A stretch of DNA of 64,000 nucleotides, taken from the NCBI GenBank assembly GCA_965197585.1, contig OZ240215.1:2272001-2336000 (forward strand), written 5' to 3'. The notes beneath the pieces were generated by a model. It searched no databases. It was given only the letters and a program-made list of their open reading frames with translations, and was not told where the DNA came from. This document shows positions 6,823-34,856 of this stretch, piece by piece (the first letter of the stretch is position 1; the number at the start of each line of letters is the position of its first letter). The DNA comes from Dehalococcoidia bacterium. GTDB lineage: Bacteria; Chloroflexota; Dehalococcoidia; Plut-88900. Both the position numbers and the translations under genes were made by a program.

Positions 6823-6867
6823 TTGGATATTGATGATAGACGGACTTGTGAGGTGTCTGTAACGTAA
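6823..6867 (+). CDS. Putative 14-aa small peptide (MDIDDRRTCEVSVT)
   Basis: Near-perfect SD AGAAAGGAGGTGAT before TTG at 6823; upstream TTGCGC-N18-TATATT promoter-like pair. Confidence 0.35.
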   Translation: MDIDDRRTCEVSVT

Positions 6868-7019
6868 ACGGTTTGACACGTAGGGGGCGTCCCCCTGGGT
6901 TCCGTTTGCGGAATCCGTGCAGACGCCGGGCCCCGAAGCTCCCGGGTTGTCCACCGGGACGGCCATAGGCCGAAGTGCTTCGGGGCTTTCTCTTTCCCCC
7001 ACTTCCCCACCCCCCACAA

Positions 7020-7092
7020 GTCATTCCGGGCTCCGAACCTGAATCCAGAGGGGGGCCGCTCATCCTGAGCTGAGTCGAAGGGTCGAGCGGGA
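7020..7092. repeat. REP-like composite palindromic repeat (GTCATTCCGG...GAATCC plus CCGCTCATCCTGAGC..GTCGAAGG)
   Basis: Near-identical copies at ~14797-14875 and ~58114-58196; related units at ~551-608 and ~52871-53045. Confidence 0.75.
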
Positions 7093-7133
7093 GTGGCACG
7101 CCATTGCTTTGTGAAAACAATCTATTGAGGTGC

Positions 7134-8199: not shown

Positions 8200-8243
8200 G
8201 TGACACGAACCCCTTGACTAAAGCAAAACATCTGTACTATATT
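8200..8243 (+). promoter_or_regulatory. Sigma70-type promoter with LexA-like box (element A)
   Basis: TTGACT(8214)-N18-TATATT(8238); AAAAC-ATCT-GTACT at 8225-8238; same layout as at 27713-27757 and 33307-33351. Confidence 0.6.
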
Positions 8244-8249
8244 GCTCAC

Positions 8250-9147
8250 CAGGCCCGACTCCCCAACGTCGGCCCTATCCAAGGAAAGGATCAGGACTCC
8301 CATGAGTCGCACCAGCCTACATACGCCCCGTCGTAACCGAGCGGTATGGGACCGCTCGGCCACCGACACGCGCCTCCTCACCTACCCCTTTCCACCCACC
8401 GTCCCCCTACACTTCCCCCACTTCAAGCGCTGCCCCAGGGCCCAACGCCTGCGCCCCGGCAGCGATCAACCACTGTTCCGTTCCCAGCATGGAAGGTTCC
8501 CGGACAAAAAACGGCTTGCCCTTTCCAAGGGCTCCTGCCAAGTGCGCGCTGCACTCAACCGGCGCACCACCCTCGCCCCCTCGGGCGACGCCCACGAGCA
8601 CGGCGTCAAGTTGCTCACCAGGGCCATCGTGCCCAGAGACTCCACCGTCGTTGCCTTCGGAGAGGCCATCCCACACAGCGGCGGCAGAGAGTCCACGCCC
8701 CCATATCTCCGTATGGCCGGGCACTTCTGGTGGTCGAGACTGCCCCACACCGAGACTATCTCGCGTCTCCTCCACGTCCTCTCAGAAGCACGGGGCTGTC
8801 GCAAAGCCGGCGTCGATGTGGAACATCCGCGGTCGCGGACATCACCCATCGGTACAGGCGTCGCCGTCTTCCTGCGCAACCGTCCGGGACCTTCCATCCC
8901 CCCCTCCTCCCCTTTTCTCCGTCTTTCCTGCGGAGGCAGGAATCCATCCCCGGAAGGGCAGGGGCCCCGCTCCTCGGGACGTACCCTCCCCTACCCCTCC
9001 CTCCCACTTGTCCACTTCCCCAGTAGGGACGACCGGCCAGTCGCCCAGGGTGTGGACGCCCCGAATGGGGTGTCCACACCCCTCCCCCGACCCAAGAAAG
9101 GAACCACCCACTAGCCCACACCCACACACCCTTCCCCCACAACTGAA
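8250..9147 (+). ncRNA. Candidate large structured ncRNA, copy A (divergent, REPs inserted in the 3' tail)
   Basis: Long-range helix 8489-8505 with 8882-8897, many hairpins, tail CCCCACAACTGAA at 9135-9147; no credible protein. Confidence 0.5.
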
Positions 9148-14795: not shown

Positions 14796-14996
14796 CGTCA
14801 CTCCGGCCCCCGAACCGGAATCCAGAGGGGTGGGGCCGCTCATCCTGAGCAGAGTCGAAGGGTCGAGCGGGGGGGCGCGCACGCCGGCCTTGCTAAGTAC
14901 GAGCCGCCTGAAGCACTCACTAGTTTGACCCCACACCCCCATCACCGATAGCATAAAGCCGCGCCTCGACCCCAATACGAGGGAGGAACACCCCCC

Positions 14997-16665: not shown

Positions 16666-17024
16666 CTTGTGCCTGCCCTCCCGCTTATGAGCAAACCTTG
16701 TACTCACCCTCTCCTCATTTGACTATCCCCATACTGCTCCATATAATCCAATACCAGAACTAGCGTCATTGGCCGTAGCAGAAAGGTGACCCCGGATCCC
16801 AGTGCCGAGTCCTGAACAGACGCCCCGAATCACTGTCCCCTCCCTCCTCCTCCCCACCTTTCCCGGCCTGATGAGCTACTTAGGCAGCACGTACCGTCCC
16901 TGGGTGTTCGCTCCTATCCTGGAGGTGAATTATGGACGATCCATAACGGCAATTGAGCCGCCTGGGGGAAGATGCGTGCATTTTCCTGACACTGCTACTA
17001 TCACTTTGGAGGAGAATTCTAAGT

Positions 17025-18344
17025 ATGAGACACACAACCTCGTTATATAGGAAAAAGAGGGGGCTGGCATTGGGTCTTGTGTCCCTCGCCTTGGTCGCGC
17101 TGCTAATTGTTGCAGCTTGCGGCGAGTCCGCCACCGCCACCCCCGAGCCCGCGGTCACCGACCCTACACCCGAGCCCACAGCGGCTATGGACGAAGCCAC
17201 CGCAGAACCGGGTACAACCCTCAGACCCGTGAGCGAGTGGACCGTGGATAACCCCGGCACCTTTGCAGAGATTGAGGCGGCCCTTGAAAACCACCGCGGC
17301 GAGAGCTTCTCCTTCGCCACTTGGGGCGGCGCCTACCAGGAGATGCAGAGGCTGGCCTTCTTCGTGCCCTTTTCGGAGAAATTCGGCATAGAGATTATCG
17401 AAGACGGACCTCCTGACTACGCCAAGGTGCGGGCCATGGCCCATACTGGAAACGTCACTTGGGACATCGTCGATGGCTCCGGCCAGGCCGGTGTCACCAT
17501 GGGTCTCGAAGGCGTCCTCGAAGAGCTGGACGAGTCCATCATCGACAAGCGTGACCTCTTCCCCCACATCAGGGATGCTCCCTGGATCGGTGGCGGCGGC
17601 TCTGCCTACTCCATGGTGCTGCTCTACAGCAAAGACACCTACCCGGACGGTGGTGCTCAACCCTCCAGGTGGGCAGACTACCTGGATGACGACAAGTTCC
17701 CCGGACTTCGGGGCATGATCCCCAACGACTGGAACTGGAAGCACATGGTCCGCTGGGCCCACTTGGCCACCAACCCCTCCCTGCTCGACACGGAAGAGGG
17801 TAGAGCTTCCCTCTCCGCAATGAGCCCGGAAGAACTGGACGTGTCATGGCAAATAATCGAGGAACAACTCGTCCCGGCCATCGACCTCTATACCCCAGGC
17901 AGCAACGACTGCATCCTCTTCCTCGAATCCGGCGAAGTTGACATCTGCCAGACCGACAACGGTTTCGCCTACGATGCACTGGCCAATGCCGGTCACAACA
18001 TTGCCATTTGCTGGGAATGCGGCCACGACGTCCTGACGGACAACTGGTGGATCATAAGGGGAATCAAGGAGCAGGACCCCGTTAAGTGGGAGCTCCTAAA
18101 CCTCTTCTTCGCCTGGACCCAGGACCCGGAGATCGCAGCTAGCCAGGCCCTCTACCAGCCCTACGGGCCTACGAACCTCAAGTCCGCTCCCTTCCTCTCA
18201 GCGCCTGAATTCGACGCTCACAGGGACTACCTGTCCACCGCAGACGCCAACCTTCCCTACGCCATCCTCATGGACGAGGCGTCGGATGGAGTGATTGGTG
18301 GAGCCCAGGCAGATCTCTGGTTTGAAGCGCAAGGCAAGAATTAA
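17025..18344 (+). CDS. ABC-type extracellular solute-binding lipoprotein (PotD/PotF-like), paralog 1
   Basis: Lipobox IVAAC, ATWGGAYQE, WDIVD, KFPGLRG, PYGPTN. Confidence 0.85.
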   Translation: MRHTTSLYRKKRGLALGLVSLALVALLIVAACGESATATPEPAVTDPTPEPTAAMDEATAEPGTTLRPVSEWTVDNPGTFAEIEAALENHRGESFSFATWGGAYQEMQRLAFFVPFSEKFGIEIIEDGPPDYAKVRAMAHTGNVTWDIVDGSGQAGVTMGLEGVLEELDESIIDKRDLFPHIRDAPWIGGGGSAYSMVLLYSKDTYPDGGAQPSRWADYLDDDKFPGLRGMIPNDWNWKHMVRWAHLATNPSLLDTEEGRASLSAMSPEELDVSWQIIEEQLVPAIDLYTPGSNDCILFLESGEVDICQTDNGFAYDALANAGHNIAICWECGHDVLTDNWWIIRGIKEQDPVKWELLNLFFAWTQDPEIAASQALYQPYGPTNLKSAPFLSAPEFDAHRDYLSTADANLPYAILMDEASDGVIGGAQADLWFEAQGKN

Positions 18345-18368
18345 ATAGTTGCAGGCAAGCCAAAAGTC

Positions 18369-18396
18369 GGGGGGCCGGTCGCATGACCGGCCCCCC
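18369..18396. terminator. GC hairpin after SBP paralog 1 (also at 19919-19946 and 21488-21515)
   Basis: GGGGGCCGGTC-N4-GACCGGCCCCC after each paralog. Confidence 0.7.
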
Positions 18397-18577
18397 TCAA
18401 TAGTAAATCATCCATTTGGGGCTCACTTTGCCCCGTTGGTTCTCAGCAAGGGCGTAGCCACGCCTCGACACCCACCCCTTTCGGGAGGCAGCTTATAAAT
18501 TATCCATAGCGGCAGACAAGCTATCTGGAGGAAGCGCCCAGCCCTTCCGAAAGTATCGGTTAGCATTAGCTGAGAGG

Positions 18578-19895
18578 CAAAAAAAAGACACATTCCGTTC
18601 CCGTCTACAGAAGAAAGAGATGGTTGGCCCTTGGGCTTTTGTCCCTCGCCCTTGTTGCCATGCTTACCGTCGTGGCTTGCGGCTAGTCCGCCACGGCTAC
18701 TCCTGACGCAGATGAGGCAATGCCCGAGCCTACGCCAACAGCGATGATGGAAGAGCCCGATGAACCATCCACCAGCCTGCGCCCCATAAGCGAATGGACC
18801 GTCGACAATCCCGGCACCCATGAAGAAGTAGTGGCAGCTCTGGCCGCCCACCGCGGCGGCAGCTTCACCTTCGCATCCTGGGGATCCGCCTACCAGGCCA
18901 TGCAGCGCCAGGCATTCCTGATCCCCTTTGCCACAGAGTTCGGCGTCGAGATTATCGAAGATGGCCCTCCCGACTACGCCAAGGTAAGGGCCATGGCCCA
19001 CACTGGCAACATAACCTGGGACATCATTGACGGCTCCGGTCAGGCTTCAATCACAATGGGCCTGGAGGGAGTCCTGGAAGAGCTCAACTTGGCCATCGTG
19101 GATAAGACAGATCTATTCCCCCACATCCGTGACGCCCCCTGGATCGGCGGCGGAGGTTCCGCCTTCTCCCACATGGTAATGTGGAGCAAGGACACCTACG
19201 GTGACGACGGTCCCAAGACCATGGCCGATGCTTTTGACAAGGAGAAGTTCCCCGGACGCAGGGGCATCTTCTCCCAGGATTGGGCCTGGAAGCACCGCGT
19301 ACGCTTCGGACTACTCATCGATGACCCTACCCTCCTCGACACCGAAGAGGGCAGAGCTAGCCTCTCCGCCATGAGCCCCGAGGAGCTTGAAAGAGCTTGG
19401 CAAGTCGTCGAAGAACGAATGATTCCCAATACCGACGTCTTCTTCGCCGGCGCCAGCGACTGCCCGGCCCTCATTCAGTCCGGCGAGCTGGACGTCTGCG
19501 AGACTGACAACGGAATCGGCTTCGACTCCGTCGTGAACACTGACCTTAACGCCCACCTTTGTTGGGAGTGCGGCCACGATGTGCTGACCGACAACTGGTG
19601 GTCCCCCAGGGGCCTCGCCGAACAGGAACCCGAGCGATGGGAGCTCATCAACCTCTTCTTCGCTTGGTCGCAGCACCCTGAGATCGCCGCAAGTCAGGCG
19701 CTCTACCAACCCTACGGCCCCACTAACCTGAAGTCGGGTCCCTTCCTCGCAGCGCCGGAATTCGACACTCACCGGCCCTACCTGCCCACCGCCGACGCCA
19801 ACCTCCCCTACGCCATCCTCATGGATGAGGCCTCAGACGGCATGATCGGTGGAGCACAAGCAGATATCTGGTTCGAAGTTCAGGGCAAGAATTAA
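18578..19895 (+). pseudogene. Solute-binding paralog 2 with lost start codon and amber stop just after the lipobox; intact ORF 18720-19895
   Basis: TGC GGC TAG at 18684-18686 versus TGC GGC GAG in the paralogs; no ATG at the homologous start. Confidence 0.7.
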
Positions 19896-20152
19896 ACAGT
19901 TCTAGGTAAGCCAAAAGTGGGGGGCCGGTCATACGACCGGCCCCCCGCAATAGTTACTCGCACCTTGGGTTCTCGCCCTCTCTAGACCGGCCTTTAGAAA
20001 GACCACAGCCGTTCCCGGCCATGTTACCCGTTCTGGAGGTAGCTTATGAATCATTCGTAGCGGCCGATAAGCCGCCTGCAGGAAGACCTGCATCGCTTCC
20101 TGAGAATTTGATTAGCGTGGGCTTTGACTAGCAGTGGAGGAGAGGTTTGACT

Positions 20153-21463
20153 ATGAAGTATCTGACCCCAATATATGGAAGTAAGAAATGGCTGGTTCTC
20201 GGGCTCCTATCCTTGGCCCTCGTCGCACTCCTGATCGTTGCCGCCTGCGGCGAGTCCGCCACCGCAACCCCGGAGCCGGAGGATGCAATGCCCGAGCCTA
20301 CGCAGACAGCGCTGATGGAGGGAGAGCCGGATGAACCATCCACCGGTCTGCGCCCCATAACCGAATGGACCGCCGACAACCCCGGCACCCATGAAGAGGT
20401 GGTAGCAGCCCTGGCGGCCCACCGCGGCGGCAGCTTCACCTTCGCATCCTGGGGATCGGCCTACCAAGCTATGCAGCGCCAGGCATTCTTGGTCCCCTTC
20501 GCCACGGAGTTCGGCGTCGAGATTGTCGAGGACGGCCCCCCGGACTACGCCAAGGTCAGGGCCATGGCCCACACGGGCAACATCACCTGGGACATCATCG
20601 ACGGCTCCGGCCAGGCTTCCATCACCATGGGCCTCGAAGGAGTCCTCGAAGAGCTCAACCCGGCCATCGTGGACAAAAGTGACCTATTCCCCCACATAAG
20701 GGACGCCCCTTGGATCGGCGGCGGCGGCTCCGCCTTCTCCCATTTGTTCATTTGGAGCACGGATACCTACGGCGATAACGGACCCAAGACCATGGCCGAC
20801 ATCTTCGATGTGGAAAAGTTCCCCGGCCGACGCGGATTGGTTGGTGCAGACTGGGCTTGGAAGCACAGAGTCCGCTTCGCACTGCTAGTGGATGATCCCA
20901 CTCTCTTGGATACGGAAGAGGGCCGCGCATCCCTCTCGGCTATGAGTCCCGAGCAGCTCGACAAGGCGTGGCAGATAACCAGCGACCGAATAATCCCCGT
21001 TACTGACGTGATTTTCCCAAGTGTCGAGTGCACGGCGTTGATCAGTTCGGGTGATGTGGACATCTGCGAGACCGACAACGGTGTAGGCTTTGACGCTATT
21101 GTAAACGGCGGTCTAAACGGGCATCTCTGCTGGGAGTGCGGTCACGACGTGCTGACCGACAACTGGTGGTCCCCCAGGGGGCTGGCAGAGCAGGAGCCCG
21201 AGAGATGGGAACTGATCAACCTGTTCTTCGCATGGGCCCAGCATCCGGAAATCGCGGCCAGCCAGGCCCTCTACCAGCCTTACGGGCCTACGAACCTAAA
21301 GTCCGCTCCCTTCCTCGCAGCGCCTGAATACGACGCCCACAGGCCCTACCTGCCTACCGCAGACGCTAACCTCCCCTACGCCATCCTCATGGATGAGGCG
21401 GCGGATGGAGCTATAGGCGGAGCGCAAGCAGAGATCTGGTTTGAGGTTCAGGGCAAGAACTAA
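20153..21463 (+). CDS. ABC-type extracellular solute-binding lipoprotein, paralog 3
   Basis: Highly similar to paralogs 1 and 2; lipobox IVAAC. Confidence 0.85.
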   Translation: MKYLTPIYGSKKWLVLGLLSLALVALLIVAACGESATATPEPEDAMPEPTQTALMEGEPDEPSTGLRPITEWTADNPGTHEEVVAALAAHRGGSFTFASWGSAYQAMQRQAFLVPFATEFGVEIVEDGPPDYAKVRAMAHTGNITWDIIDGSGQASITMGLEGVLEELNPAIVDKSDLFPHIRDAPWIGGGGSAFSHLFIWSTDTYGDNGPKTMADIFDVEKFPGRRGLVGADWAWKHRVRFALLVDDPTLLDTEEGRASLSAMSPEQLDKAWQITSDRIIPVTDVIFPSVECTALISSGDVDICETDNGVGFDAIVNGGLNGHLCWECGHDVLTDNWWSPRGLAEQEPERWELINLFFAWAQHPEIAASQALYQPYGPTNLKSAPFLAAPEYDAHRPYLPTADANLPYAILMDEAADGAIGGAQAEIWFEVQGKN

Positions 21464-21535
21464 AGAGTTTTAGGCAAGCCGAAAAAGAGGGGGCCGGTCG
21501 TACGACCGGCCCCCTTGCTTTTACCTTCCAAAAAA

Positions 21536-25711: not shown

Positions 25712-26989
25712 CTAGGGCCGGACGTGACCGCGGCCCAGAATTATCCACTTGTAGGAAGTCATCTCCCGGAGCCCCATCGGGCCCCGAGCGTGCATCTTCT
25801 GCGTGCTGATCCCCACCTCCGCCCCGAGGCCGAACTGGCCGCCGTCAGTGAAGCGGGTGCTGGCATTTACAAATACAGCCGCCGCGTCCACCTCGTCGAG
25901 AAATCTCTGGGCCGCCGAGTAGTCCTCGGTTATTATCGCCTCTGAATGCCCCGACCCATAGGTCTCTACGTGGTTCAGGGCCTCGTCCAGCCCATCGACA
26001 ACTTTGACCGAAGCGACCAGGGCAAGAAACTCCGTACCCCAGTCGGATTCTGTTGCGGGGACTGACCGGGCCTCGGGCACGCTCTGGAGCAGGTCGAGGG
26101 CCCTTTCGTCGCACCGTATCTCTACGCCCTTCTCGCTCCAGGCGCGGGCGATTCGAGGTAAGTATTCGTGGGCGACGGCTGAGTGCACGATGAGGGTGTC
26201 CAGGGCGTTGCAGGTGGAGGGGCGTTGTACCTTGGCATTGTAGGCTATGGCCACCGCACTGTCCAGATTGGCCGACTTGTCCACATACGTGTGGCACACC
26301 CCCACCCCACCCTCGACAACCGGCATCGAAGCATTCTCACCTACGTAGCGTATGAACTGCTCACTGCCCCTGGGCACCAGCAGATCGATCAGCCCCTTCA
26401 TGCCGAGCATCTCGCCGACCAGGGACCTGTCAGTCGACTCGACGAACTGAACAGCCTCCCCCGGCCCCCCGGCCTCCACGAGGCTTTCCCTCACGATTGA
26501 GGAGAGGATTAGGTTAGACCTGATGGCCTCCTTGCCGCCCCTCAGCAGCACCGCGTTCCCCGACTTGAGACACAGGCACGATATGTCTATGGTGACATTC
26601 GGGCGGCTTTCATATATTGCCCCGATCAGACCCAATGGCACTCGCCTCTTCCCGACCTGCAGCCCATTGGGCAGCGTCCTCATGTCAAAGGTCTCACCGA
26701 CAGGGTCGGGCAGCACGGCAATGCCCTCAACGTCCGCAGCGAGAGCTTGAATCCGCTCGGGCGTAAGCAAAAGCCTGTCCAAAAGGGACTCGGACAGCCC
26801 GGTCGCGACACCCGTCTCGCAGTCCTGACGGTTGGCCGAGACAATATCCTCCTGCTTTTCGAGGAGGGCTCGCGCTATGTTCCTCAGGGCCCGGTCCTTC
26901 ACCGCACCGCTCGCCCGACCCAACTCCCGCCCCGCCCCCCGAGCCGCCAAAGCCTGCACCCTAAGGTCTTGTTTAACACTCGTAGTCAT
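25712..26989 (-). CDS. proA: Gamma-glutamyl phosphate reductase
   Basis: VPLGLIGAIYESRPNVT, CNALDTL, NASTRFTDG, QKMHARGPMGL. Confidence 0.97.
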   Translation of the reverse strand: MTTSVKQDLRVQALAARGAGRELGRASGAVKDRALRNIARALLEKQEDIVSANRQDCETGVATGLSESLLDRLLLTPERIQALAADVEGIAVLPDPVGETFDMRTLPNGLQVGKRRVPLGLIGAIYESRPNVTIDISCLCLKSGNAVLLRGGKEAIRSNLILSSIVRESLVEAGGPGEAVQFVESTDRSLVGEMLGMKGLIDLLVPRGSEQFIRYVGENASMPVVEGGVGVCHTYVDKSANLDSAVAIAYNAKVQRPSTCNALDTLIVHSAVAHEYLPRIARAWSEKGVEIRCDERALDLLQSVPEARSVPATESDWGTEFLALVASVKVVDGLDEALNHVETYGSGHSEAIITEDYSAAQRFLDEVDAAAVFVNASTRFTDGGQFGLGAEVGISTQKMHARGPMGLREMTSYKWIILGRGHVRP

Positions 26990-27065
26990 TGCTCTCCTAT
27001 TATCAGGACTTGACCGCCGAGGGGCAAGAACGTGTACTCGTTCGGTAGATTAGTGACACACCGGG

Positions 27066-27706
27066 TTTTATTCAGTTGTGGGGTTTTGGTTTCCGTTTTG
27101 TCTGTTGGGAGGAGGTTGGCGATGGAAGACGCCCATTTGGCAGAGCTGCTTGTACGTGGACTTGCAGCCAGTATGCCCTGATGCTAGATGGTATACACGG
27201 ACAATTCTCGGGCCAGACGTCCGGCAGAGGCTCCTTATGGGGGCTGTATGCCCGTGGGGACACGTCGGGGCCAGGGATCTAGCTGTGCGAGGCCCCACAG
27301 CCTAACTAATAGTGTCCAAGTTCGCCGGAAAAGGACAGGAGCGAATATCCTCCGGGCACCCCCGCGCCGCAGCGCCAGTCTCCAGCAATGCGGCCCGACG
27401 TTCGAGACGGTTCTCCATGGGGGTTAGGCGGTCCGCGGAGCGTATGCTCTGGTCACCCTTGATGCAATCTCCCGTACAGGGAGCGGGGTGGGAGCGTGAA
27501 GGCCAGGGCGTCTTTCCATCGCCTGGGGATCAGGGAAGGGGGCACGGGACCCGTGGGATGAGGAGATGGCGTCGGTCGCTTGTGCCGCGGGCCTGCGCGA
27601 GGGCCGTTGGGATGGGCTTGGACGTTGAGTCCTCTGGTGGGTCGAGTGTGGGCTTCCCTAGTTTTTAGTTCCTCCTTAAGGTAGTTGGGTTAGGTAGTCT
27701 AGACCT
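27066..27706 (-). ncRNA. Candidate large structured ncRNA, copy B
   Basis: About 200 nt of leader clearly homologous to copy C; helix 27523-27506 with 27134-27118; conserved tail. Confidence 0.6.
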
Positions 27707-27712
27707 GGCTAC

Positions 27713-27757
27713 AATATAGAACATAAGTACTTATAATGTCAAGGGGGTGATGTCACC
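27713..27757 (-). promoter_or_regulatory. Sigma70-type promoter with LexA-like box (element B)
   Basis: TTGACA(27742)-N18-TATATT; AGAAC-ATAA-GTACT at 27718-27731. Confidence 0.65.
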
Positions 27758-27774
27758 CCTCTATGTGAACGGGA

Positions 27775-27966
27775 TCAAACGGCCCGACCCAACGTAAATC
27801 TCTCTCCGAAGGCGTCTCCTATGACGGGTTGGAATAGCTGACGACTAGCCAGACCTAAGCAACTCCCCTTCAAACCACCTCTTCGCACCCTCCTAACCCA
27901 CCTCCTCCCCACCCCCCGAGCCGCCAAAGCCTGCGCCCTAAGGTCTTGTTTAACGCTGGTAGTCAT
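27775..27966 (-). pseudogene. Duplicated 5' fragment of proA
   Basis: 27912-27966 matches 26935-26989 with 3 mismatches; translates MTTSVKQDLRAQALAARG. Confidence 0.85.
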
Positions 27967-27975
27967 AACAGCCCA

Positions 27976-28716
27976 TCATTTGTCTTGCATACTATCGATC
28001 AGCATTCTCAATTTGCTGTCTAAAGCATCGGGGCCGAACCAGTTCGGATCGTCTTGGATGAGTACTGTAGGAGTGCGCGGGATTACATTATCGGAAGCAA
28101 TAGTGAACGGCAAGCACAAGCGCCAATCATCATACGAATTCCTTATGAGCTCCTTTTCAGTGCTGACCTTGTAATACGTCTTAATCCATGCAACGGCCTC
28201 TGGTTTATCAATCAACTGCAACCCGGGTTGCAGAGATTTACCCATAAACAAGGAGTTGGACACATTGCAAAGCAACAGGTCAAATTCCCCTACCAAATAT
28301 CTATCGTTGGTAGTTGATTGGAGTCCCAGGTTGCTGCGAGACTTGTGACACTTGACTTTGAAATGAGCACTTGGGATATTCCTCGTTTCTACTCGGAAAC
28401 TCCCTCGAACAGCATTCTTAGTTTCAACCTTTAGGCGGATACCTGTCCGTCTAAAGGTAATGCTAACATCCTCATCGCTTTTGCCTGGCTGAGGATTAAG
28501 GTTCAGTTTATCGACACTCCATTCCCTAGGGTTAAGCGTATGTTTAAGAAATGCCGCCCCAACGTACTCAGTTGCCTTGCCCCTAATCATCGGAAGAACT
28601 TTTTGGTCTTCCAAGATGTCAAGTAAGTTTTCACGGGGAATATTGTACGTATCACAATACTCCTTAATGTTTCGGTAGACGCGTAAAGCTTCGTCTTGTT
28701 CGGCTTCCTCAACCAT
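27976..28716 (-). CDS. Putative type II restriction endonuclease, PD-(D/E)XK-like
   Basis: GKATE...DEDV...KVETKN catalytic-like spacing; overlaps the methylase stop; lower GC. Confidence 0.6.
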   Translation of the reverse strand: MVEEAEQDEALRVYRNIKEYCDTYNIPRENLLDILEDQKVLPMIRGKATEYVGAAFLKHTLNPREWSVDKLNLNPQPGKSDEDVSITFRRTGIRLKVETKNAVRGSFRVETRNIPSAHFKVKCHKSRSNLGLQSTTNDRYLVGEFDLLLCNVSNSLFMGKSLQPGLQLIDKPEAVAWIKTYYKVSTEKELIRNSYDDWRLCLPFTIASDNVIPRTPTVLIQDDPNWFGPDALDSKLRMLIDSMQDK

Positions 28717-29614
28717 AGTAGTTTCGGATAAAGAGTTCCCGTCCTTGGTATCTAGCTCTCTTGAATCCGTCCTTCATGTTCACTCCATTCCTCTGATCAT
28801 CTGTGCGATTGATAGTGTAGTTCCACTGTTGTCCCCTAATGTCCATAGCCCATCGGTAAAGGCGCCTCACCTCCGGGTGGTCATCATATGTCAAGAGAAA
28901 CTGGAGTCGATCAGAGTGCCGTCTTAGACATGCGGAGAGCCGCTCGTGGTCAATGAAGTTGAAGGTGCAGTTATAAAATTTCTGCTGGTCTGCGTTGAAG
29001 TAAGGAGGGTCCACAAACACAAAGCAACCCGAGGGCAATGCATTGAAGACTTGCTCAAAATCAAAGGATTGGAGATGTACTTCTTGAAGCTTATCCGACA
29101 CAGTACGCAGGTGGGGAGGCCAGTTTTCAGGACGCATCGAATATTTGTTTCCGAATCCCCAGTAACAGTTCTCTGGTCGCATGATTCCGCTATATGAAAT
29201 GCGATTCAGGTAGTACCATCGAAAGGCACGCTCCAAATTGGTTCCGGGCTTGTAATGGTTCTTGTAGTAATTATGCAGCTCTTTGGCCGCTGGTATGCCC
29301 TTAAGTAAAGATATTAGACCTTCTACGTTATCCCGGATGTGTATGAGCGTATTCATTACTTCTTCGTCGAGATCGTTTAGAAGGTTCCATGCTGCTTTGG
29401 TCTTTGCGAAGAATATGGACGCACCGCCCGCAAATGGTTCGCAATAATGGGAATGAGGAGGAATGAAGTCCAGGATTAGACGTCGTGCATAGAATTTTCC
29501 TCCTGGATAGCGGAATGGGGAGTTGGACTTCCCAGAGCGGGGAGCGCAGGTAGAGCCAAGAAACTTGACCGGCAAGACACCCTGTAATGCACTATTGGGT
29601 GACTCAGCAGGCAT
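28709..29614 (-). CDS. Dam-family (D12 class) N6-adenine DNA methyltransferase
   Basis: FRYPGGK, YCEPFAGGAS, NDLD, FVDPPY, ELFIRNY. Confidence 0.92.
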   Translation of the reverse strand: MPAESPNSALQGVLPVKFLGSTCAPRSGKSNSPFRYPGGKFYARRLILDFIPPHSHYCEPFAGGASIFFAKTKAAWNLLNDLDEEVMNTLIHIRDNVEGLISLLKGIPAAKELHNYYKNHYKPGTNLERAFRWYYLNRISYSGIMRPENCYWGFGNKYSMRPENWPPHLRTVSDKLQEVHLQSFDFEQVFNALPSGCFVFVDPPYFNADQQKFYNCTFNFIDHERLSACLRRHSDRLQFLLTYDDHPEVRRLYRWAMDIRGQQWNYTINRTDDQRNGVNMKDGFKRARYQGRELFIRNYYG

Positions 29615-29738
29615 TTTTTCTCCTTAAATGCAGATCCAATTCGTCAACTAAGCCCAGATCTGCAACCGCGTCAGTAATATAACATGACGGGCTTAAATCA
29701 TTCAGCGCTCGCTCGGAGAATTTCTTGCACTCCCACCC

Positions 29739-30902
29739 CTACAACAACACCAAATTATCCCTATGCACCAGCTCCGCCCCGTACTCATACCCGAGAACTT
29801 CTATGATCTCCCCCGACTGCCGACCCGCTATCGCCTTCGCATCCCCCGCACCATAGTTCGTCAGCCCGCAGGCAATCCGGTTCCCGACCCCGTCCAGGAT
29901 GATAAGCACGTCTCCCCGCTCAAAGCTCCCCGACACCTCCACGACACCCGCAGGCAGCAGGCTCTTACCACCCCTCCTTAGCGCTGACACCGCACCCCCA
30001 TCCACCCGCACCGCCCCTCGGGAGTTCAGCCCGCTAAGCATCCACCGCTTCCGGCTCTCCATCTTTGTCGTCTGGCTGGGGAAGAACGTGCCCAGTCCCT
30101 CGCCGCTGGCCAGGCGGGGTATCACGTCCTCCATCCGACCCTTGGCAATCACCACGTCCACCCCTGATGTCGTAGCCAGGCTCGCTGCCTGCAGCTTCGT
30201 CACCATCCCCCCGACCGCCTCCGCGCTCTTAGTACCTTGGGCCAGAGACGTAATAGATTCATCGATCGCCTCCACCCTGGAAATGAGCTTCGCATCTGGG
30301 TCGAGGCTCGGGTCCGATGTGTACAACCCCGCCACGTCCGAAAGGATCATCAGCAGGTCCGCGTCCACCAGGTTCGCCACCATCGCCGATAGATTGTCGT
30401 TGTCCCCGAACCGGGTCCCTTTGATCTCCTCCACAGCGACAACATCGTTCTCGTTGACGATTGGCTGCACCCCGAGCTCCAGCAAGGTGTTGAGAGTGTT
30501 CCGCACGTTCAGATACCCCAGCCTGTCCGACAAATCCCCCCTCGACACCAAAGCCTGCGCCACCGTTATCCCGTGCTCCCCGAACAGCCTGTCGTAAGCT
30601 TGCATCAACCTTCCCTGCCCAACCGACGCCAGCACCTGCTTTAGCGGGACACCCCTATGCTCCGGCACCCGGCCCAGAATCTCCCTCCCAGACGCCATCG
30701 CCCCCGAGGACACCAGCACCACCTCCATACCTTCCCGCCTGATCGCCGCTATCTGCCCAACTAGCGAGGCCATACACCCCAGGTCGAGGCCTCGGTCGGG
30801 CCCCGCAAGCAGGTTGCTGCCCAGTTTCACTACTACCCGACGGTATGCGATTGAGACATTACGCCCGCGGCCGGATGTTGAGTTGTCGTTGGACTTAGCC
30901 AT
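29739..30902 (-). CDS. proB: Glutamate 5-kinase with PUA domain
   Basis: VVVKLGSN, VSSGA, NENDVV, FGDNDNLSA, GGMVTKL; exact start uncertain. Confidence 0.96.
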   Translation of the reverse strand: MAKSNDNSTSGRGRNVSIAYRRVVVKLGSNLLAGPDRGLDLGCMASLVGQIAAIRREGMEVVLVSSGAMASGREILGRVPEHRGVPLKQVLASVGQGRLMQAYDRLFGEHGITVAQALVSRGDLSDRLGYLNVRNTLNTLLELGVQPIVNENDVVAVEEIKGTRFGDNDNLSAMVANLVDADLLMILSDVAGLYTSDPSLDPDAKLISRVEAIDESITSLAQGTKSAEAVGGMVTKLQAASLATTSGVDVVIAKGRMEDVIPRLASGEGLGTFFPSQTTKMESRKRWMLSGLNSRGAVRVDGGAVSALRRGGKSLLPAGVVEVSGSFERGDVLIILDGVGNRIACGLTNYGAGDAKAIAGRQSGEIIEVLGYEYGAELVHRDNLVLL

Positions 30903-31010
30903 ATGCGGTTGAAGCAGGGAGGCGAGTATATCACCCACCCATCAAAGCGGTGGTGGGAAAGAGCGCAGCCCTTTCCCACCACACACCATGTCTACTCTCA
31001 AGACGTGTTC

Positions 31011-31889
31011 CTACTTCCCGTTGGCCCCATCCTCATCGGCGCTGGCGGCCAGGTTCATAAATGGCTTGAGAACGTTGGTGAACTCCATCGGGAAAATGAA
31101 CTTGGTGGAGGGGCTGGCCCCAATCTCCTTCAACGTTTCGAAGTACTGGAGGCTCATCGTCTTCGCATCTACATCCTGGGCTACCTTATATATCTGGTCC
31201 AGTGCATTGCTGAATCCCTCGGCATTCAGGATCGCCGCCTGCCTATTGCCCTCAGCCTTCAAAATCTCCGCCTGTCTCTGCCCCTCGGCATTGAGAATTG
31301 CAGCCTGCTTCTGGCCCTCCGCTACGGTGATGTTGGCCTCTTTCTGGCCGTCCGCCTCGGTGACTACGGCTCGGCGTTCCCGCTCAGCGGCCATCTGCCG
31401 GTTCATGGCGTGCTGGATCTCGGCGGGCGGGTCGATCTCCCGGATCTCAACAGCCGTCACCTTCACGCCCCAGCGGCTGGTGACTTCATCCAGCTTGACC
31501 CGGAGGACCTGGTTGATCTCTTCCCTCTTCGCGAGCACGTCATCCAGGGGGATGTCACCAATTACGGCCCTTAGGGTCGTCGTCGCCATACCTACTATCG
31601 CGGCGCGGAAGTCCTGGACCTCAATGACCGACTTCTCTGCCTCATGGTCCACTACCTTGTAGTAGATCAGGAAGTCGATTCCTATAGGGGCGTTGTCCTT
31701 CGTTATGTTGGTCTGCCTCGCCACGTCAATCACGTCTTCTCGAAGATCGACCTTCTGGAAGCTGTCTATGAACGGTATCAGGAGCCGCAGACCCGCGCCC
31801 TTCAACCCGAAGAACTTCCCCAGCCTGAAGGGGACCATCCTTTCATACTGCTTTACGATGATTACTGGAAACAATACCGGTGTCGCCAT
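31011..31889 (-). CDS. SPFH/band 7 domain protein
   Basis: FRLGK, ITKDN, WGVKVTAVEI, QMAAERERRA; downstream of nfeD-like gene. Confidence 0.9.
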   Translation of the reverse strand: MATPVLFPVIIVKQYERMVPFRLGKFFGLKGAGLRLLIPFIDSFQKVDLREDVIDVARQTNITKDNAPIGIDFLIYYKVVDHEAEKSVIEVQDFRAAIVGMATTTLRAVIGDIPLDDVLAKREEINQVLRVKLDEVTSRWGVKVTAVEIREIDPPAEIQHAMNRQMAAERERRAVVTEADGQKEANITVAEGQKQAAILNAEGQRQAEILKAEGNRQAAILNAEGFSNALDQIYKVAQDVDAKTMSLQYFETLKEIGASPSTKFIFPMEFTNVLKPFMNLAASADEDGANGK

Positions 31890-31907
31890 TTAAGGCTCCT
31901 TTCTAAT

Positions 31908-33239
31908 TCACGCCTTGCGGACTTTGATAGTCAGACCGTCGACTTCGACCACCTCCACCTTATCACCCACCCCTATTGACCCCTCCCCCGACGACACCGC
32001 ACTCCACGTCTCGCTTTTCAGCTGCACGTTCCCCACGGGGTTCAACTCCGAGAGCACTTGTCCCGTCTGCCCGATAAGTAGCTCCACACTCGAGGCATAT
32101 TTCAGCTTTCGCGTCCTTACCATCGCCCCGACGATCACCAGCGCAAAGAACGCCATCATCCCTGAGAGTATGGCCACGAGCCAGAAACTGATCCTGAGCA
32201 CCGGGGCCCCCGGCCAGTCCGGCTCCCCAACCGAGAATAGCAGCAGCGCCCCCAGCACGAACGCGATCACTCCCCCCACCCCCAGGAACCCTATCCCCGG
32301 AACCTGGATCTCCAGGAAGATTAGGATGGCTGCCAGGCCCAGCAGCACCACGCCCGCCCAGTTGAACGGCATCGCGCCAAGGGCCACCAGCCCTACGATT
32401 AGCGCCAGCGCCCCGACAACTCCGGGAACGATCAGCCCCGGGTTGAGAAGCTCCACGAAGAGGCCTATTGCCCCAAACGTCAGGAGTAGACCAATAACGT
32501 TCGGGTGAGCGACGAAGGAGAAGAACTTCTCAGCAAGGTTCATCTCCACCTCCCGCTCCACTAGCCCCTCGGTCCGCATCGTAACCGTCCCTAACGCCGT
32601 CTCCGTCTCACGTCCCTCCAGCTGTTCAAGCAAGTCCTGTACGTCCACAGCCACGAAATCTACTAAGCCAACTTCCACCGCCACAGACGCCGTATAGGCC
32701 TCTGCTTCCGTGATCGTCTTGGTCAGGGCTTCCTTGTCGCGGCCTCGCTTCTCTGCAATGCCCTCGGCCATAGCTACGGTTATGTTGATGGCCTTTTCGG
32801 ATAAAGTATCGGGCAGGTCTTCTCCGTCCGCTGCCACCGGCGAAGCCGCCCCGATGGACGTGCCCTCGGCCATCACCGCAAAGTTAGCCGCCGCCGTGAC
32901 AAACGTCCCTGCCGAGGCCGCAAAGGCGCCAGGTGGATAGACATACACCGCCACAGGCACTTCCGCCCCAAGCAGCCTCTCCACTATGTTCTCCGTGGAG
33001 GAAAGCGACCCCCCCGGCGTGTCCAGCTTGATGACCACCAGCGCCGCCCCGTCGACCTCCGCCATCTCGATGCCGCGGGAAAAATACCGCTCCGCGTTTG
33101 GGCTTATATCCCCATCGTAGGTGAGTACGTAGACTTGCTCTTCCGGGCTCTGGGCATAGGCGGGACTAAGCAGCAACGCCAGCCCTGCAACTAACATCGC
33201 CACCCCGAGTAACAGCCTTACCCACCTAAACGCCGCCAT
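31908..33239 (-). CDS. nfeD: NfeD-family membrane serine protease (long form)
   Basis: LDTPGG, AASAG, IGAASPV, TM region and C-terminal OB fold; classic NfeD-SPFH pair. Confidence 0.88.
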   Translation of the reverse strand: MAAFRWVRLLLGVAMLVAGLALLLSPAYAQSPEEQVYVLTYDGDISPNAERYFSRGIEMAEVDGAALVVIKLDTPGGSLSSTENIVERLLGAEVPVAVYVYPPGAFAASAGTFVTAAANFAVMAEGTSIGAASPVAADGEDLPDTLSEKAINITVAMAEGIAEKRGRDKEALTKTITEAEAYTASVAVEVGLVDFVAVDVQDLLEQLEGRETETALGTVTMRTEGLVEREVEMNLAEKFFSFVAHPNVIGLLLTFGAIGLFVELLNPGLIVPGVVGALALIVGLVALGAMPFNWAGVVLLGLAAILIFLEIQVPGIGFLGVGGVIAFVLGALLLFSVGEPDWPGAPVLRISFWLVAILSGMMAFFALVIVGAMVRTRKLKYASSVELLIGQTGQVLSELNPVGNVQLKSETWSAVSSGEGSIGVGDKVEVVEVDGLTIKVRKA

Positions 33240-33306
33240 ATTGACAATTATACATCCCCTCCCCACTTCCGTAGGTACGACCGGCCGGTCGCCTTCCTCG
33301 ATAGGA

Positions 33307-33351
33307 GTGACACCAACCCCCTTGACCTTAGATGAACATTCGTGCTAATCT
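33307..33351 (+). promoter_or_regulatory. Sigma70-type promoter with LexA-like box (element C)
   Basis: TTGACC(33322)-N18-TAATCT(33346); TGAAC-ATTC-GTGCT at 33333-33346. Confidence 0.6.
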
Positions 33352-33357
33352 CCTCAC

Positions 33358-34026
33358 CGTTCGAACACCAACCTAACTATCTCAAGGAGGAACCAAAAAC
33401 CCAGGGAAGCCCACCCGACCCATCCGAGGACTCAACGTCCAAGCCCATCCCAATGGCCCTCCCGCGGCCTGCGGCTCAAGCAAACGCCGCCATCTCCTCA
33501 TCCCATCGGGTCCCGTGCCCCTTCCCTGACCCCCAGGCGATGGAAAGACACTCTGGTTCGTTAAGTTCCATGTGAAGCTCCTTACGGAGAAGCCGCTCCT
33601 TCGAGCGGAATAGCGGTCGGATAGGCCCGGCGCCGAGGCCCTCTCGGTACACCGTCCGCTTAATCAAGCCGGGAGCCGGTGGTCTACGCGCTCCGGGTCG
33701 CACCGGCAAACTTGAACACACTACGCCTGCAGAGGCCCGGCATCGGACGCTGGACGGACCTCCTTGCCGCCCTATAGCGGTGCAGCCAACCCTCGGAGTC
33801 GGGCTCGGACCTGCTGGCCCTGAAGGTCCCTGCCCATGTCCAGCGTATGCAGGGCCACAGGCCGCAGCAGCGGCAGGCGGCTTTAGTCCGCCGTAGTCGG
33901 GCCGGCGCCCTCACCCCGGGGCGTCGGAACACCCGAAGCACATGAACGGGGACAGCGTCCAGCCAGTGTCTTCCATCGCCAAACCCTTCCAAATAAGAAC
34001 CAAAATCCAACCCACAACCGAATAAA
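33358..34026 (+). ncRNA. Candidate large structured ncRNA, copy C
   Basis: Leader homologous to copy B; helix 33536-33556 with 33963-33980; tail CCCACAACCGAATAAA at 34011-34026. Confidence 0.6.
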
Positions 34027-34172
34027 GGCCCTTGCCTGCCCCTGACGTGCCGGACTAGTACATTATGTTGCCTAATTGCCTGGAAAATGATACTATGTTC
34101 GTGCCTGAAGTGAAGGTTTTCTACGCTTCACTTCAGTTACCTTGACCCGTCCGTCAAGACCTCGTTTCCCAC

Positions 34173-34856
34173 ATGCCCATAGTAGGTATAACCGCATCCA
34201 GGAAAGCCAAAGGGGCCCGATATATAAGGGTCTTGGAGAAAGTCGGCGCTGAACCCATCATCCTCCGCCCTGATCCCGACGCCAACCTCCCTTCTATCCT
34301 CGATAGCGTAGACGGCCTTCTCCTGTCCGGCGGCGAAGACATAGACCCGCACTACTACGAAGAACCCTTCCTGGACGCGACCCCCGACAAAGAACGGGAT
34401 GCCTTCGAATTGCCCCTGCTGAAAGAAGCTCTGAAGCGGGATATGCCAGTATTCGGCGTCTGCCGTGGCATGGAGGCCCTGAACGTCGTGATGGGCGGCA
34501 AACTGACCCGCAAAATCAAAGGACACCGCTCCCCAGACTTGGTCAAGTCCGTGTTCCACGACGTATACGTGGCGCCCGGCAGCCGCCTGGGTGCGATCTT
34601 CGGCGGCGCCCCTATTCTGCGTGTCAACAGCAGGCACCACCAGGGATTCACCCAGTTCCAGAAGGCCCCCGGCCTCCTGGCCTCCGCCTACGTCCTTGAC
34701 GGCGACCTGATAGAGGCCGTGGAGTCCCTTTCCCACACTTGGGTTTTCGGAGTCCAGTGGCACCCCGAAAGAGAGTCCGAAAACCACCCCAAAAACCTGA
34801 ACCTGTTCCACGCCCTCGCCGAGGCCGCGGAAAGGTTCTCCAGTATCACCGTCTAG
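34173..34856 (+). CDS. Gamma-glutamyl-gamma-aminobutyrate hydrolase family (peptidase C26)
   Basis: DGLLLSGGEDIDP, GVCRGM, NSRHHQG, GVQWHPE. Confidence 0.9.
   Translation: MPIVGITASRKAKGARYIRVLEKVGAEPIILRPDPDANLPSILDSVDGLLLSGGEDIDPHYYEEPFLDATPDKERDAFELPLLKEALKRDMPVFGVCRGMEALNVVMGGKLTRKIKGHRSPDLVKSVFHDVYVAPGSRLGAIFGGAPILRVNSRHHQGFTQFQKAPGLLASAYVLDGDLIEAVESLSHTWVFGVQWHPERESENHPKNLNLFHALAEAAERFSSITV

What the first reader, a model, noticed from the sequence alone, without database searches (positions are those of the whole stretch)
27118..27523. Long-range closing helix with compensatory changes in all three elements, resembling a processing or circularisation stem
Seen: B has GGCGATGGAAAGACGCCC pairing with GGGCGTCTTCCATCGCC. 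C has GGCGATGGAAAGACACTCTGG (33536-33556) pairing with CCAGTGTCTTCCATCGCC (33963-33980). A has ATGGAAGGTTCCCGGAC (8489-8505) pairing with GTCCGGGACCTTCCAT (8882-8897). The ATGGAA/TTCCAT part is invariant, while the inner pairs change on both arms together, and each 5' arm carries an unpaired base. The enclosed cores have similar lengths but little sequence identity. Established: such stems flank RNase III-processed rRNAs and retron msr-msd (a1/a2). Inference: a ~400-nt mature RNA could be excised, circularised or reverse transcribed from a precursor. No reverse transcriptase gene is present in this window.
Basis: partly seen in the sequence, partly recalled or inferred. Interest (0 to 1): 0.78.

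Follow-up and report, generated by a model that had tools for sequence, protein, structure and literature searches.

The report
Seventy-copy transcribed repeat with clamp helix
The three long-range helices belong to a roughly 70-copy, protein-free, promoter-carrying repeat that sits in front of host genes in one uncultured Dehalococcoidia genus and appears to encode a new structured RNA whose ends are clamped by the helix.

Summary
A, B and C are three members of a repeat family. The 3.43-Mb genome holds 57 copies with the B/C-type leader and 13 A-type places. All 8 other genomes of the genus carry dozens of copies. No copy was found in 32 genomes (leader DNA) or 116 genomes (core RNA model) outside the genus.

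Each copy has the same layout:
- a sigma70-like promoter;
- a ~180-nt C-rich, unstructured, highly conserved leader with an orphan Shine-Dalgarno box;
- the closing helix, with 10 near-invariant pairs (GGCGATGGAA) plus covarying inner pairs;
- a 300-550-nt non-coding core with covariation-supported helices;
- an A/C-rich tail without a terminator;
- usually a co-oriented host gene.

Copies are present or absent between species. Where they are orthologous, they change 4-8 times more slowly than neighbouring third codon positions.

The closed genome has no reverse transcriptase, so the retron analogy fails. No core is ever found inverted, so an invertible DNA switch is unlikely. RNase III cutting and circularisation remain untested.

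My best reading is a portable transcribed leader module whose helix clamps an autonomous RNA domain. What the core does is unknown. No Rfam family matches it, and I found nothing about it in print.

The parts
33275..34061 (+). Element C, whole insert as defined by comparison with empty sites in two other species
   Evidence: In G003 and G001, the gap between the NfeD gene and the amidotransferase gene carries about 115 nt of other sequence where G000 has these ~790 nt. There is no target-site duplication.
33322..33351 (+). C promoter-like site, TTGACC-18-TAATCT (8 of 12, one of the two weakest in the family)
   Evidence: The family consensus is TTGACN-17/18-TATATT or TATTAT.
33356..33535 (+). 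C leader: C-rich, with no conserved structure, an orphan AAGGAGG at 33385-33391 and C3-tract runs
   Evidence: Only 2.8% of columns vary among three orthologues.
33536..33556 (+). C 5' arm of the closing helix (one bulged A)
33557..33959 (+). C core, a non-coding multi-helix domain. The central part, 33666-33799, is the seed of covariance model R1.
33960..33980 (+). C 3' arm of the closing helix
   Evidence: Position 33967 covaries with 33550.
33981..34061 (+). C tail: A/C-rich, with no terminator. It is followed by the native promoter region and the amidotransferase-gyrA genes (34173 onward).
27028..27784 (-). Element B as a whole. The right end is set by comparison with the native proA upstream region of other species. 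The left end is where similarity to paralogues stops.
   Evidence: B is present at this locus in G000 and G002 only, of 9 genomes.
27713..27742 (-). B promoter-like site, TTGACA-18-TATATT (11 of 12)
27524..27706 (-). B leader
27506..27523 (-). B 5' arm (GGCGATGGAAAGACGCCC on the minus strand, one bulged A)
27135..27505 (-). B core (core family 0)
   Evidence: Its 95%-identical paralogue is hit by model R1.
27118..27134 (-). B 3' arm
27028..27117 (-). B tail, followed by the native proA promoter-like site (27027-26999) and proA (26989-25712)
8214..8243 (+). A promoter-like site, TTGACT-18-TATATT (10 of 12)
8250..8488 (+). A leader (a second leader type, shared with about 12 other places in the genome)
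8489..8897 (+). A arms (8489-8505 and 8882-8897) and core. The core is related to the cores with GGTCC-type arms.

Best explanation
A, B and C are copies of one genus-specific, protein-free repeat of about 0.8 kb. I read it as a portable transcribed leader module.

Proposed mechanism:
1. The element's own sigma70-type promoter makes an RNA. It starts with a ~180-nt C-rich, unstructured leader whose sequence is conserved. About 30 nt from the 5' end, the leader carries a Shine-Dalgarno box with no start codon. This may act as a 30S-binding 5' stabiliser of the STAB-SD kind.
2. The closing helix follows. It has 10 near-invariant pairs plus 5-7 covarying pairs, and often one bulged base. It clamps a 300-550-nt multi-helix core so that the core folds as a self-contained domain at any of ~70 loci.
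3. An A/C-rich tail without a terminator lets transcription run into the co-oriented host gene.
4. The clamp is the natural target for a double-strand-specific nuclease. Cutting there would free the core and give the host mRNA a new 5' end.

Shown here: the family and its layout, covariation in the helix and core, the promoter motif, the absence of coding, slow change at orthologous loci, and presence/absence between species.

Inferred, not shown: transcription itself, read-through, any cleavage, any effect on the host gene, and what the core does.
For: Family size and range:
- The genome holds 57 B/C-type copies and 13 A-type places.
- All 8 other genomes of the genus have dozens of leader matches. 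None of 32 genomes outside the genus has one.
- The core model R1 is found only in the genus: 4 of 4 sampled genomes plus the window's own, and 0 of 116 others in the class.

Strand and transcription signals:
- A promoter-like site scoring at least 9 of 12 lies 208-247 nt before the 5' arm in 55 of 57 copies. A reverse-strand site in the tail occurs in 3 of 57.
- The next long ORF downstream is co-oriented in 44 of 57 copies (p = 5e-5). Of 20 such ORFs checked, 19 have Pfam domains.
- A terminator-like site follows the element in 1 of 57 copies.

Non-coding nature:
- No ORF is conserved, substitutions show no 3-base periodicity, and indels are mostly not multiples of 3.

Structure:
- C-type cores have 91 predicted pairs, with 95.7% of cells paired. 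Eighteen pairs change on both sides, against 8.3 in shuffles (0 of 500 shuffles reach this) and 3-7 in slid controls.
- In the cross-family alignment, 19 of 27 pairs change on both sides, against 11.1 in shuffles (0 of 500).
- The helix has pair probability about 0.8 to 1.0 in full-transcript folds.

Leader:
- AAGGAGG is present in 131 of 133 leaders, with no start codon after it in 130 of 131.
- The leader has no conserved secondary structure.

Selection:
- At the C locus, 3.2% of element columns vary, against 19-22% of third codon positions in the flanking genes.
- At the B locus, the core varies at 1.7% and the tail at 1.0%, against 14.0% of third codon positions.

Other:
- B and C both sit upstream of retained native promoters.
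- The genome encodes RNase III and Rho.
Against: - No read-level RNA evidence was available. The two metatranscriptome runs are held as contigs only and do not show the element transcribed.
- Structure alone does not fix the strand. Both strands fold about equally well.
- In helices predicted on both strands, G.U outnumbers A.C on the promoter strand in families 0 and 3 (11:3 and 10:2 pairs). In family 5 the ratio is reversed, 5:20.
- In the clamp's outer 10 pairs, the excess is modest: 26 G.U cells against 14 A.C cells.
- The alignment was fitted to the model's structure, which favours that structure.
- The clamp has a median of 15 pairs with a bulge, which is short for a classical RNase III site.
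- The native promoters are kept downstream of B and C, so the host genes need not depend on the element.
- A C-rich template strand that is G-rich, with runs of G3 tracts in 107 of 133 leaders, could hinder rather than help transcription.
- Slow change at orthologous loci could also come from gene conversion among copies or from recent transfer.
- The means of spread is unknown.
Confidence: 0.55

Rival explanations
1. The element is a family of genes for a trans-acting stable RNA. The precursor is cut in the clamp helix, and the ~400-nt core accumulates as the functional product, in linear form or circularised by RtcB. Leader and tail would then only be processing flanks.
For: - The clamp helix is kept in all copies.
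- The core is structured, with conserved unpaired motifs such as GGCAAACTTGGACA and GTGCAGCCAACCC.
- The genome encodes RNase III and one RtcB.
- Downstream genes are functionally unrelated, so the core class does not track gene function.
Against: - The best-conserved part is the leader, not the core.
- With ~70 copies, a trans-acting product should relax selection on each copy. Yet orthologous copies change 4-8 times more slowly than third codon positions.
- The strong co-orientation with the next gene and the lack of terminators fit a cis role better.
- No data on RNA ends or junctions were available.
Confidence: 0.2
2. The arms act as DNA: terminal inverted repeats of a nested MITE, the recombination sites of an invertible switch, or a hairpin in single-stranded DNA.
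For: - The arms are 15-17-bp inverted repeats flanking 300-550 bp, the size range of invertons and MITEs.
- Copies are gained and lost between species.
- Recombination within the repeats could homogenise the two arms without any RNA being involved.
Against: - None of 133 distinct cores from 9 genomes lies in the opposite orientation to its leader.
- The inverted repeats are internal, 180-260 nt inside the conserved left end.
- No leader was found without a core.
- There are no direct repeats next to the arms, and none at the C insertion.
- The core's internal helices covary as in an RNA.
- No Y1 transposase or TnpB is found, and no longer protein-coding version flanked by the same arms exists.
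Confidence: 0.08
3. The element is a purely selfish or neutral repeat. The helix and the core structure are relics of the mechanism of spread and do nothing for the host or its genes.
For: - It has many copies, is limited to one genus, and is mosaic and modular.
- It is present or absent between species.
- Downstream genes show no shared function.
Against: - Orthologous copies change as slowly as first and second codon positions.
- Promoter boxes are kept in 55 of 57 copies.
- Compensatory changes occur between orthologues.
Confidence: 0.1
4. The element is retron-like or otherwise a template for reverse transcription, with the arms playing the part of a1/a2.
For: Inverted repeats flank a structured non-coding RNA that has its own promoter.
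Against: - No RVT_1 match is found anywhere in the closed genome, although the same search rings in 3 control genomes.
- The genes after the elements are ordinary metabolic and housekeeping genes.
- The ~400-nt core is far longer than a retron msr-msd (size recalled, not from a call).
Confidence: 0.02

Closest known systems
Correia repeat enclosed elements (CREE) of Neisseria
   Same: Both are many-copy intergenic repeats with inverted repeats that can carry promoters. Transcribed CREE form a hairpin that RNase III binds or cuts, and CREE alter expression of the adjacent gene (abstract of PMC2649163, seen in the listing).
   Different: CREE are recalled to be about 100-155 bp, with the inverted repeats at their ends and a target duplication. 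Here the element is ~0.8 kb, and the inverted repeats are internal and enclose a 300-550-nt covarying multi-helix core. There is a long conserved leader. No duplication is seen at the one insertion compared with an empty site. There is no sequence relation.
Modular and mosaic small repeats (pneumococcal BOX, enterobacterial BIME/REP, ERIC)
   Same: Both are intergenic and built from modules in varying combinations. Optional upstream and downstream modules are seen, and a REP-like palindrome lies at the edge of C. Both are transcribed with neighbouring genes. PMC3049150 and PMC3184786 were seen as abstracts only.
   Different: Those repeats are tens to ~200 bp (recalled) and form simple hairpins. 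None is known to me to carry a conserved promoter together with a 400-nt structured core.
Processing stems flanking rRNAs (RNase III)
   Same: In both, a long-range helix forms between sequences on either side of a large structured RNA and brings its ends together.
   Different: rRNA stems are longer (recalled). They flank a universal RNA in a few operons, not ~70 dispersed units. Cleavage has not been shown here, and the helix has a median of 15 pairs.
Retron msr-msd
   Same: Both have a promoter, a structured non-coding RNA and flanking inverted repeats.
   Different: There is no reverse transcriptase in the genome. No RT gene follows the element, and the RNA is much larger.
Large ornate bacterial RNAs and element-borne guide RNAs (GOLLD, ROOL, OLE, HEARO/omega RNA)
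   Same: Both are several hundred nucleotides long, with many helices and covariation. HEARO-type RNAs occur in many copies because they ride on mobile elements (recalled).
   Different: No Rfam family matches. Nothing scored at E up to 10 on B and C, and nothing relevant at E up to 1 on four other families. No IscB/TnpB-type gene is adjacent or present in the genome. The element occurs in one genus only.
STAB-SD 5' stabiliser of Bacillus cryIIIA mRNA
   Same: Both have a Shine-Dalgarno box near the 5' end of a transcript with no start codon behind it (here in 131 of 133 leaders).
   Different: The function here is only inferred. For the STAB-SD paper, I saw only its title in the reference list of PMC7509114. 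Its content is recalled.

Membership tests
Retron (msr-msd with RT) | A reverse transcriptase gene next to the non-coding RNA | tested here: not met
   No RVT_1 match in the whole closed genome. Neighbouring genes are proA, an amidotransferase with gyrA, and others.
Retron (msr-msd with RT) | Inverted repeats a1/a2 flanking the RNA | tested here: met
   The arms pair in 57 of 57 copies. This feature is not specific to retrons.
RNase III processing stem | A double-stranded stem of about two helical turns formed by the flanks of the mature RNA | tested here: inconclusive
   The helix has a median of 15 pairs (range 11-30), often with a bulge. RNase III is encoded in the genome.
RNase III processing stem | Cleavage within the stem, giving defined RNA ends | not testable with these tools
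   Only contigs of RNA runs could be laid, and they show no ends.
MITE (non-autonomous DNA transposon) | Inverted repeats at the very ends of the inserted unit | tested here: not met
   The conserved unit extends 250-470 nt to the left and 45-170 nt to the right of the arms. The insert defined by the empty site is 33275-34061, while the arms lie at 33536 and 33980.
MITE (non-autonomous DNA transposon) | A target-site duplication | tested here: not met
   At the C insertion, about 115 nt were replaced without any duplication. The 75-nt repeat near B belongs to the junction of the restriction-modification island.
MITE (non-autonomous DNA transposon) | A related autonomous element with a transposase | tested here: inconclusive
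   No Y1_Tnp or TnpB is found. No longer unit flanked by the same arms exists: the one candidate lies inside coding sequence. Other transposase families were not searched.
Invertible DNA switch (inverton) | The segment is found in both orientations | tested here: not met
   No minus-strand similarity between any of 133 distinct cores from 9 genomes. Read-level heterogeneity was not tested.
Riboswitch or other gene-specific cis-regulatory leader | The RNA class goes with a class of downstream genes | tested here: not met
   Amidohydrolase genes follow four different core families. The downstream genes include transporters, oxidoreductases, tRNA synthetases, proA and an amidotransferase with gyrA.
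Any Rfam family | A covariance-model match | tested here: not met
   Nothing on A, B or C at gathering score. Nothing but one chance-level microRNA match at E up to 10 on 26900-34200. Only chance-level matches on five loci that hold four other core families.
Transcribed interspersed repeats of the CREE/BOX kind | Many intergenic copies, gained and lost between relatives | tested here: met
Transcribed interspersed repeats of the CREE/BOX kind | Transcribed with, and affecting, the neighbouring gene | not testable with these tools
   The promoter motif, the co-orientation and the lack of terminators are consistent with this, but no expression data were available.

The most novel reading that the evidence does not exclude
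The cores are a new class of large structured RNA, in two superfamilies, that is itself the payload of a protein-less mobile element. In this reading the RNA is excised at the clamp helix and may be circular. It would either direct or catalyse the copying of its own locus using host enzymes, or act as a ~70-gene family of trans-acting RNAs. The conserved C-rich leader would be the handle read by an unknown genus-specific factor.
Probability: 0.15. Interest if true: 0.9.

Novelty: new variant of a known kind. Interest (0 to 1): 0.68.

Why it matters
If the reading holds, about 2% of a 3.4-Mb genome (roughly 70 copies of 0.8 kb) consists of one transcribed non-coding module. It places the same promoter, leader and structured RNA in front of unrelated genes such as proA, the gyrA operon, tRNA synthetase genes and transporter genes. 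That would be a bacterial example of a repeat wiring many genes to one control input. It would also be a new large structured RNA class outside Rfam, found in an uncultured lineage.

The family has hundreds of diverged copies in nine genomes. That makes it an unusually rich data set for solving an RNA structure by covariation and for asking how a protein-free element spreads.

Tried and rejected
- Protein coding: ORFs starting at the ATGGAA of either arm are short or not conserved. Core family 5 has long forward ORFs in some copies, but they are broken in others. No codon periodicity is seen, and indels shift the frame.
- Inverton: no core is inverted.
- Long target duplication: only 2 of 57 copies have flanking direct repeats of about 70 nt or more. 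One is a shared module. The other, at B, goes with the restriction-modification island. The sequence just upstream of proA is the native promoter region found in five other species.
- Autonomous version: a genome-wide search for the same arms 150-6000 nt apart outside known copies gave one pair, matching 15 of 20. It lies inside two coding regions and is a chance match.
- Cores derived from genes: the inner cores hit only other copies of the family and some 30-60-nt motifs.
- Strand from energy or covariation: not decisive.
- Expression: two metatranscriptome runs hold 14-15% of the sampled words. Once laid, they cover the flanking genes of a ~90-95% identical relative, and little of the B and C cores. 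They are contigs, depth cannot rank regions, and DNA carry-over cannot be excluded. They therefore give no evidence for or against transcription. The contig that skips 26927-27903 is read as the B-less arrangement seen in G003, not as splicing.
- Terminator at the end of the element: found in 1 of 57 copies.
- Conserved leader structure: none.
- Wider distribution: the leader 28-mer occurs in 0 viral contigs and in 1 metagenome contig.
- Literature: four searches found no description of such an element in Dehalococcoidia or Chloroflexota (as listings; for Correia elements). Supplements were not consulted.

Full report
**Observation.** The arms quoted for A (8489-8505 and 8882-8897) and C (33536-33556 and 33963-33980) are in the window as written. 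B's strings are the minus-strand reading of 27506-27523 and 27118-27134. A repeat search shows that B is an inverted copy of C. About 145 nt next to B's right arm (27503-27648) matches the reverse complement of the sequence before C's left arm (33412-33556) at 82-91%, and the sequences beyond the other arms also match. In each of the three elements, the arm next to this shared leader has one extra base.

**Scale.** The 801 nt around C gave 45 matches in the window's own closed 3.43-Mb genome. Local BLAST with the B and C leaders gave 61 sites. Of these, 57 are full leaders and 4 share only the promoter-proximal ~45 nt; those 4 are A-type copies.
- All 57 full copies have a 3' arm complementary to the 5' arm, 325-553 nt downstream.
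- The A-type leader and core occur at 13 places, all with the helix ATGGAAGG..CCGGAC / GTCCGG..CCTTCCAT.
- The leader is found in all 8 other genomes of the genus, with 40-81 first-look candidates each. It is found in none of 32 genomes of other genera of the family and class.
- Named records with the leader 28-mer are all uncultured 'Dehalococcoidia bacterium' MAGs.
- The 28-mer occurs in no viral contig and in one metagenome contig.

**Anatomy.** An alignment of the 57 copies gives the following layout.
- *Promoter.* The consensus is TTGACN, 17-18 nt, then TATATT or TATTAT. A site scoring at least 9 of 12 lies 208-247 nt before the 5' arm in 55 of 57 copies, and 48 score at least 10. A comparable site on the other strand of the tail occurs in 3 of 57. 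The tool scan finds the sites of B (11 of 12) and A (10 of 12). C's is weak, at 8 of 12.
- *Leader.* It is 44% C and 20% G, and it is the best-conserved part. It has no conserved secondary structure (RNAalifold -2.3 kcal/mol on 133 leaders). It contains AAGGAGG in 131 of 133 leaders, about 154 nt before the arm, with no start codon behind it in 130 of 131. It contains four or more C3 tracts in 107 of 133 leaders, against 24 in shuffled leaders.
- *Tail.* It is 33% A, 36% C and 18% G. A terminator-like site follows in 1 of 57 copies.
- *Downstream gene.* The next long ORF is co-oriented in 44 of 57 copies by a crude ORF call (binomial p = 5e-5). Of 20 such ORFs, 19 have Pfam domains. Their functions are unrelated: transporters, flavin oxidoreductases, four amidohydrolases, LeuRS, GluRS, FAD synthetase and others. 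In the window, B precedes proA, and C precedes an amidotransferase gene followed by gyrA.

**The helix.** I collected 133 distinct cores from nine genomes. The collecting filter required an arm match.
- In the outer ten pairs (GGCGATGGAA/TTCCATCGCC), 1261 of 1330 cells are Watson-Crick.
- The inner pairs are mainly GACGC(C) with (G)GCGTC (66 copies) or GGTCC with GGACC (38 copies).
- The median helix length is 15 pairs.
- The bulge is in the 5' arm in 50 cores and in the 3' arm in 2.
- Between orthologues of C in three species, 33550 (A or G) and 33967 (T or C) change together.
- In folds of the predicted whole transcripts of A, B and C, the outer eight pairs have probability about 0.8 to 1.0.

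**The cores.**
- They are not coding. ORFs from either ATGGAA are short or not conserved. Variable columns are spread evenly over the three phases, and most indel runs are not multiples of three.
- They fall into about 13 sequence families.
- Profile searches join these families into two superfamilies that go with the two arm types. One superfamily contains both B and C. The other contains the A-like cores.
- For 15 C-type cores, RNAalifold predicts 91 pairs. Of the cells, 95.7% pair. Eighteen pairs change on both sides, against 8.3 in shuffles (0 of 500 reach the observed value) and 3-7 when partners are slid.
- A covariance model of the central 134 nt of the C type finds B-type and a third family's cores over its full length: 39 matches in 100 sources. 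On that alignment, which is fitted to the model, 19 of 27 pairs change on both sides, against 11.1 in shuffles (0 of 500).
- Conserved unpaired stretches lie between the helices.
- No Rfam family matches.
- The model finds nothing in 116 genomes of the class outside the genus.

**Strand.** The promoter and the gene orientation point to the C-rich strand. Structure alone does not decide.
- Energies and pair counts are alike on both strands. The forward strand has slightly better z-scores (C -4.5 against -3.3; B -3.2 against -2.9; A -3.6 against -2.5).
- In helices predicted on both strands, pairs with G.U outnumber pairs with A.C on the forward strand in families 0 and 3 (11:3 and 10:2).
- The reverse holds in family 5, at 5:20. 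I cannot explain this.

**Gain, loss and constraint.**
- B is present upstream of proA in 2 of 9 genomes of the genus. C is present upstream of the amidotransferase gene in 3 of 9.
- Against the empty sites of two species, C is a ~790-nt segment (33275-34061) that replaces about 115 nt, without a duplication. It lies upstream of the retained native promoter region.
- The 75-nt repeat of the proA start on the far side of B (27892-27966) is not a target duplication of B. The sequence just upstream of proA in this genome is the native promoter region shared with five species that lack B. The repeat sits where a low-GC restriction-modification island abuts proA in G003.
- A contig of one run joins 26926 to 27904, which is that B-less arrangement.
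- At orthologous loci the element changes slowly. At C, 3.2% of its columns vary, against 19-22% of third codon positions in the flanking genes. At B, the core varies at 1.7% and the tail at 1.0%, against 14.0%.

**What could act on it.**
- The closed genome (91.9% complete by marker genes) has no RVT_1, no Y1 transposase and no TnpB-type domain.
- It has RtcB, Rho and RNase III.
- No longer unit flanked by the same arms exists.

**Reading.** I take the element to be a portable transcribed leader module.
- It has its own promoter.
- Its leader is read by sequence, not by fold. The orphan Shine-Dalgarno box near the 5' end resembles the STAB-SD stabiliser. I saw only the title of that paper in a reference list; its content is recalled.
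- Its clamp helix makes the core fold the same way at every locus.
- Its unstructured tail runs into the host gene.
- Cutting of the clamp by RNase III, release or circularisation of the core, and any effect on the host gene are inferences.

Weighing the rivals:
- The slow change of each orthologous copy argues for a role at each locus rather than only a trans-acting product.
- The fixed orientation of all cores argues against a DNA switch.
- The absence of a reverse transcriptase argues against a retron.

**Comparison and novelty.** The nearest known things are transcribed interspersed repeats such as the Correia elements (abstract of PMC2649163). This element differs from them in size, in its internal rather than terminal inverted repeats, in its conserved promoter and leader, and in its covarying 400-nt core. 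Four searches of the paper library found no description of it.

Noticed in passing
window 27892-29614: A low-GC island (46-51% GC against ~60%) lies between proB and proA. It carries a D12-class adenine methyltransferase gene (28709-29614) and a 246-aa ORF with no Pfam match (27976-28716), probably a restriction-modification pair. It ends in a 75-nt copy of the proA start (27892-27966, 87% identical to 26915-26989). In G003 the island abuts proA directly. Other species lack it.
   Followed up: partly
window 6800-6994 (+): This is the only Rfam match in the window at gathering score: Ms_IGR-5, an actinobacterial sRNA family (54.8 bits, E 1.8e-9), here in a Chloroflexota genome. A 45-nt dispersed repeat lies just beside it (7049-7093).
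   Followed up: no
window 7049-7093, 14829-14873, 52976-53020, 58151-58195: A 45-nt dispersed repeat (..CCGCTCAYCCTGAGC....GTCGAAGGGTCGAGCGG..) occurs in four copies in the window at 64-93% identity. It is another small interspersed repeat family of this genome.
   Followed up: no
window 33283-33305 and about 9030-9050: A REP-like palindrome (..ACGACCGGCCGGTCGCC..) lies at the left edge of element C. A related copy lies downstream of A. This suggests that the elements sit in mosaics with other small repeats.
   Followed up: no
window 16953-21535: Three tandem paralogous units of ~1.56 kb (65-90% identical) are present. Each is followed by the same G+C-rich hairpin (GGGGGCCGGTC...GACCGGCCCCC at 18363-18395, 19913-19945 and 21482-21514).
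   Followed up: no
whole genome G000: GC skew is strongly negative (-0.1 to -0.2) from about 1.05 to 2.6 Mb and near zero or weakly positive elsewhere. Long ORFs show little strand bias. In the negative-skew stretch, 25 of 32 elements point the same way (+).
   Followed up: partly
G000 copies at 114710, 918997, 1397597, 1958568, 2370247, 2715447, 2828132 (core family 5): In this core family, 20 predicted pairs show A.C and 5 show G.U on the promoter strand. This is the opposite of families 0 and 3. The reverse strand also folds much better (-170 against -135 kcal/mol).
   Followed up: partly
G000:C1 about 2680050-2681015 (L002:450-1412, minus): One C-type copy (at 2681564, 87% identical to C over ~720 nt) lies 136 nt upstream of a co-oriented gene for an rve-type integrase/transposase. 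This is the only mobile-element gene among the 20 downstream genes checked.
   Followed up: no
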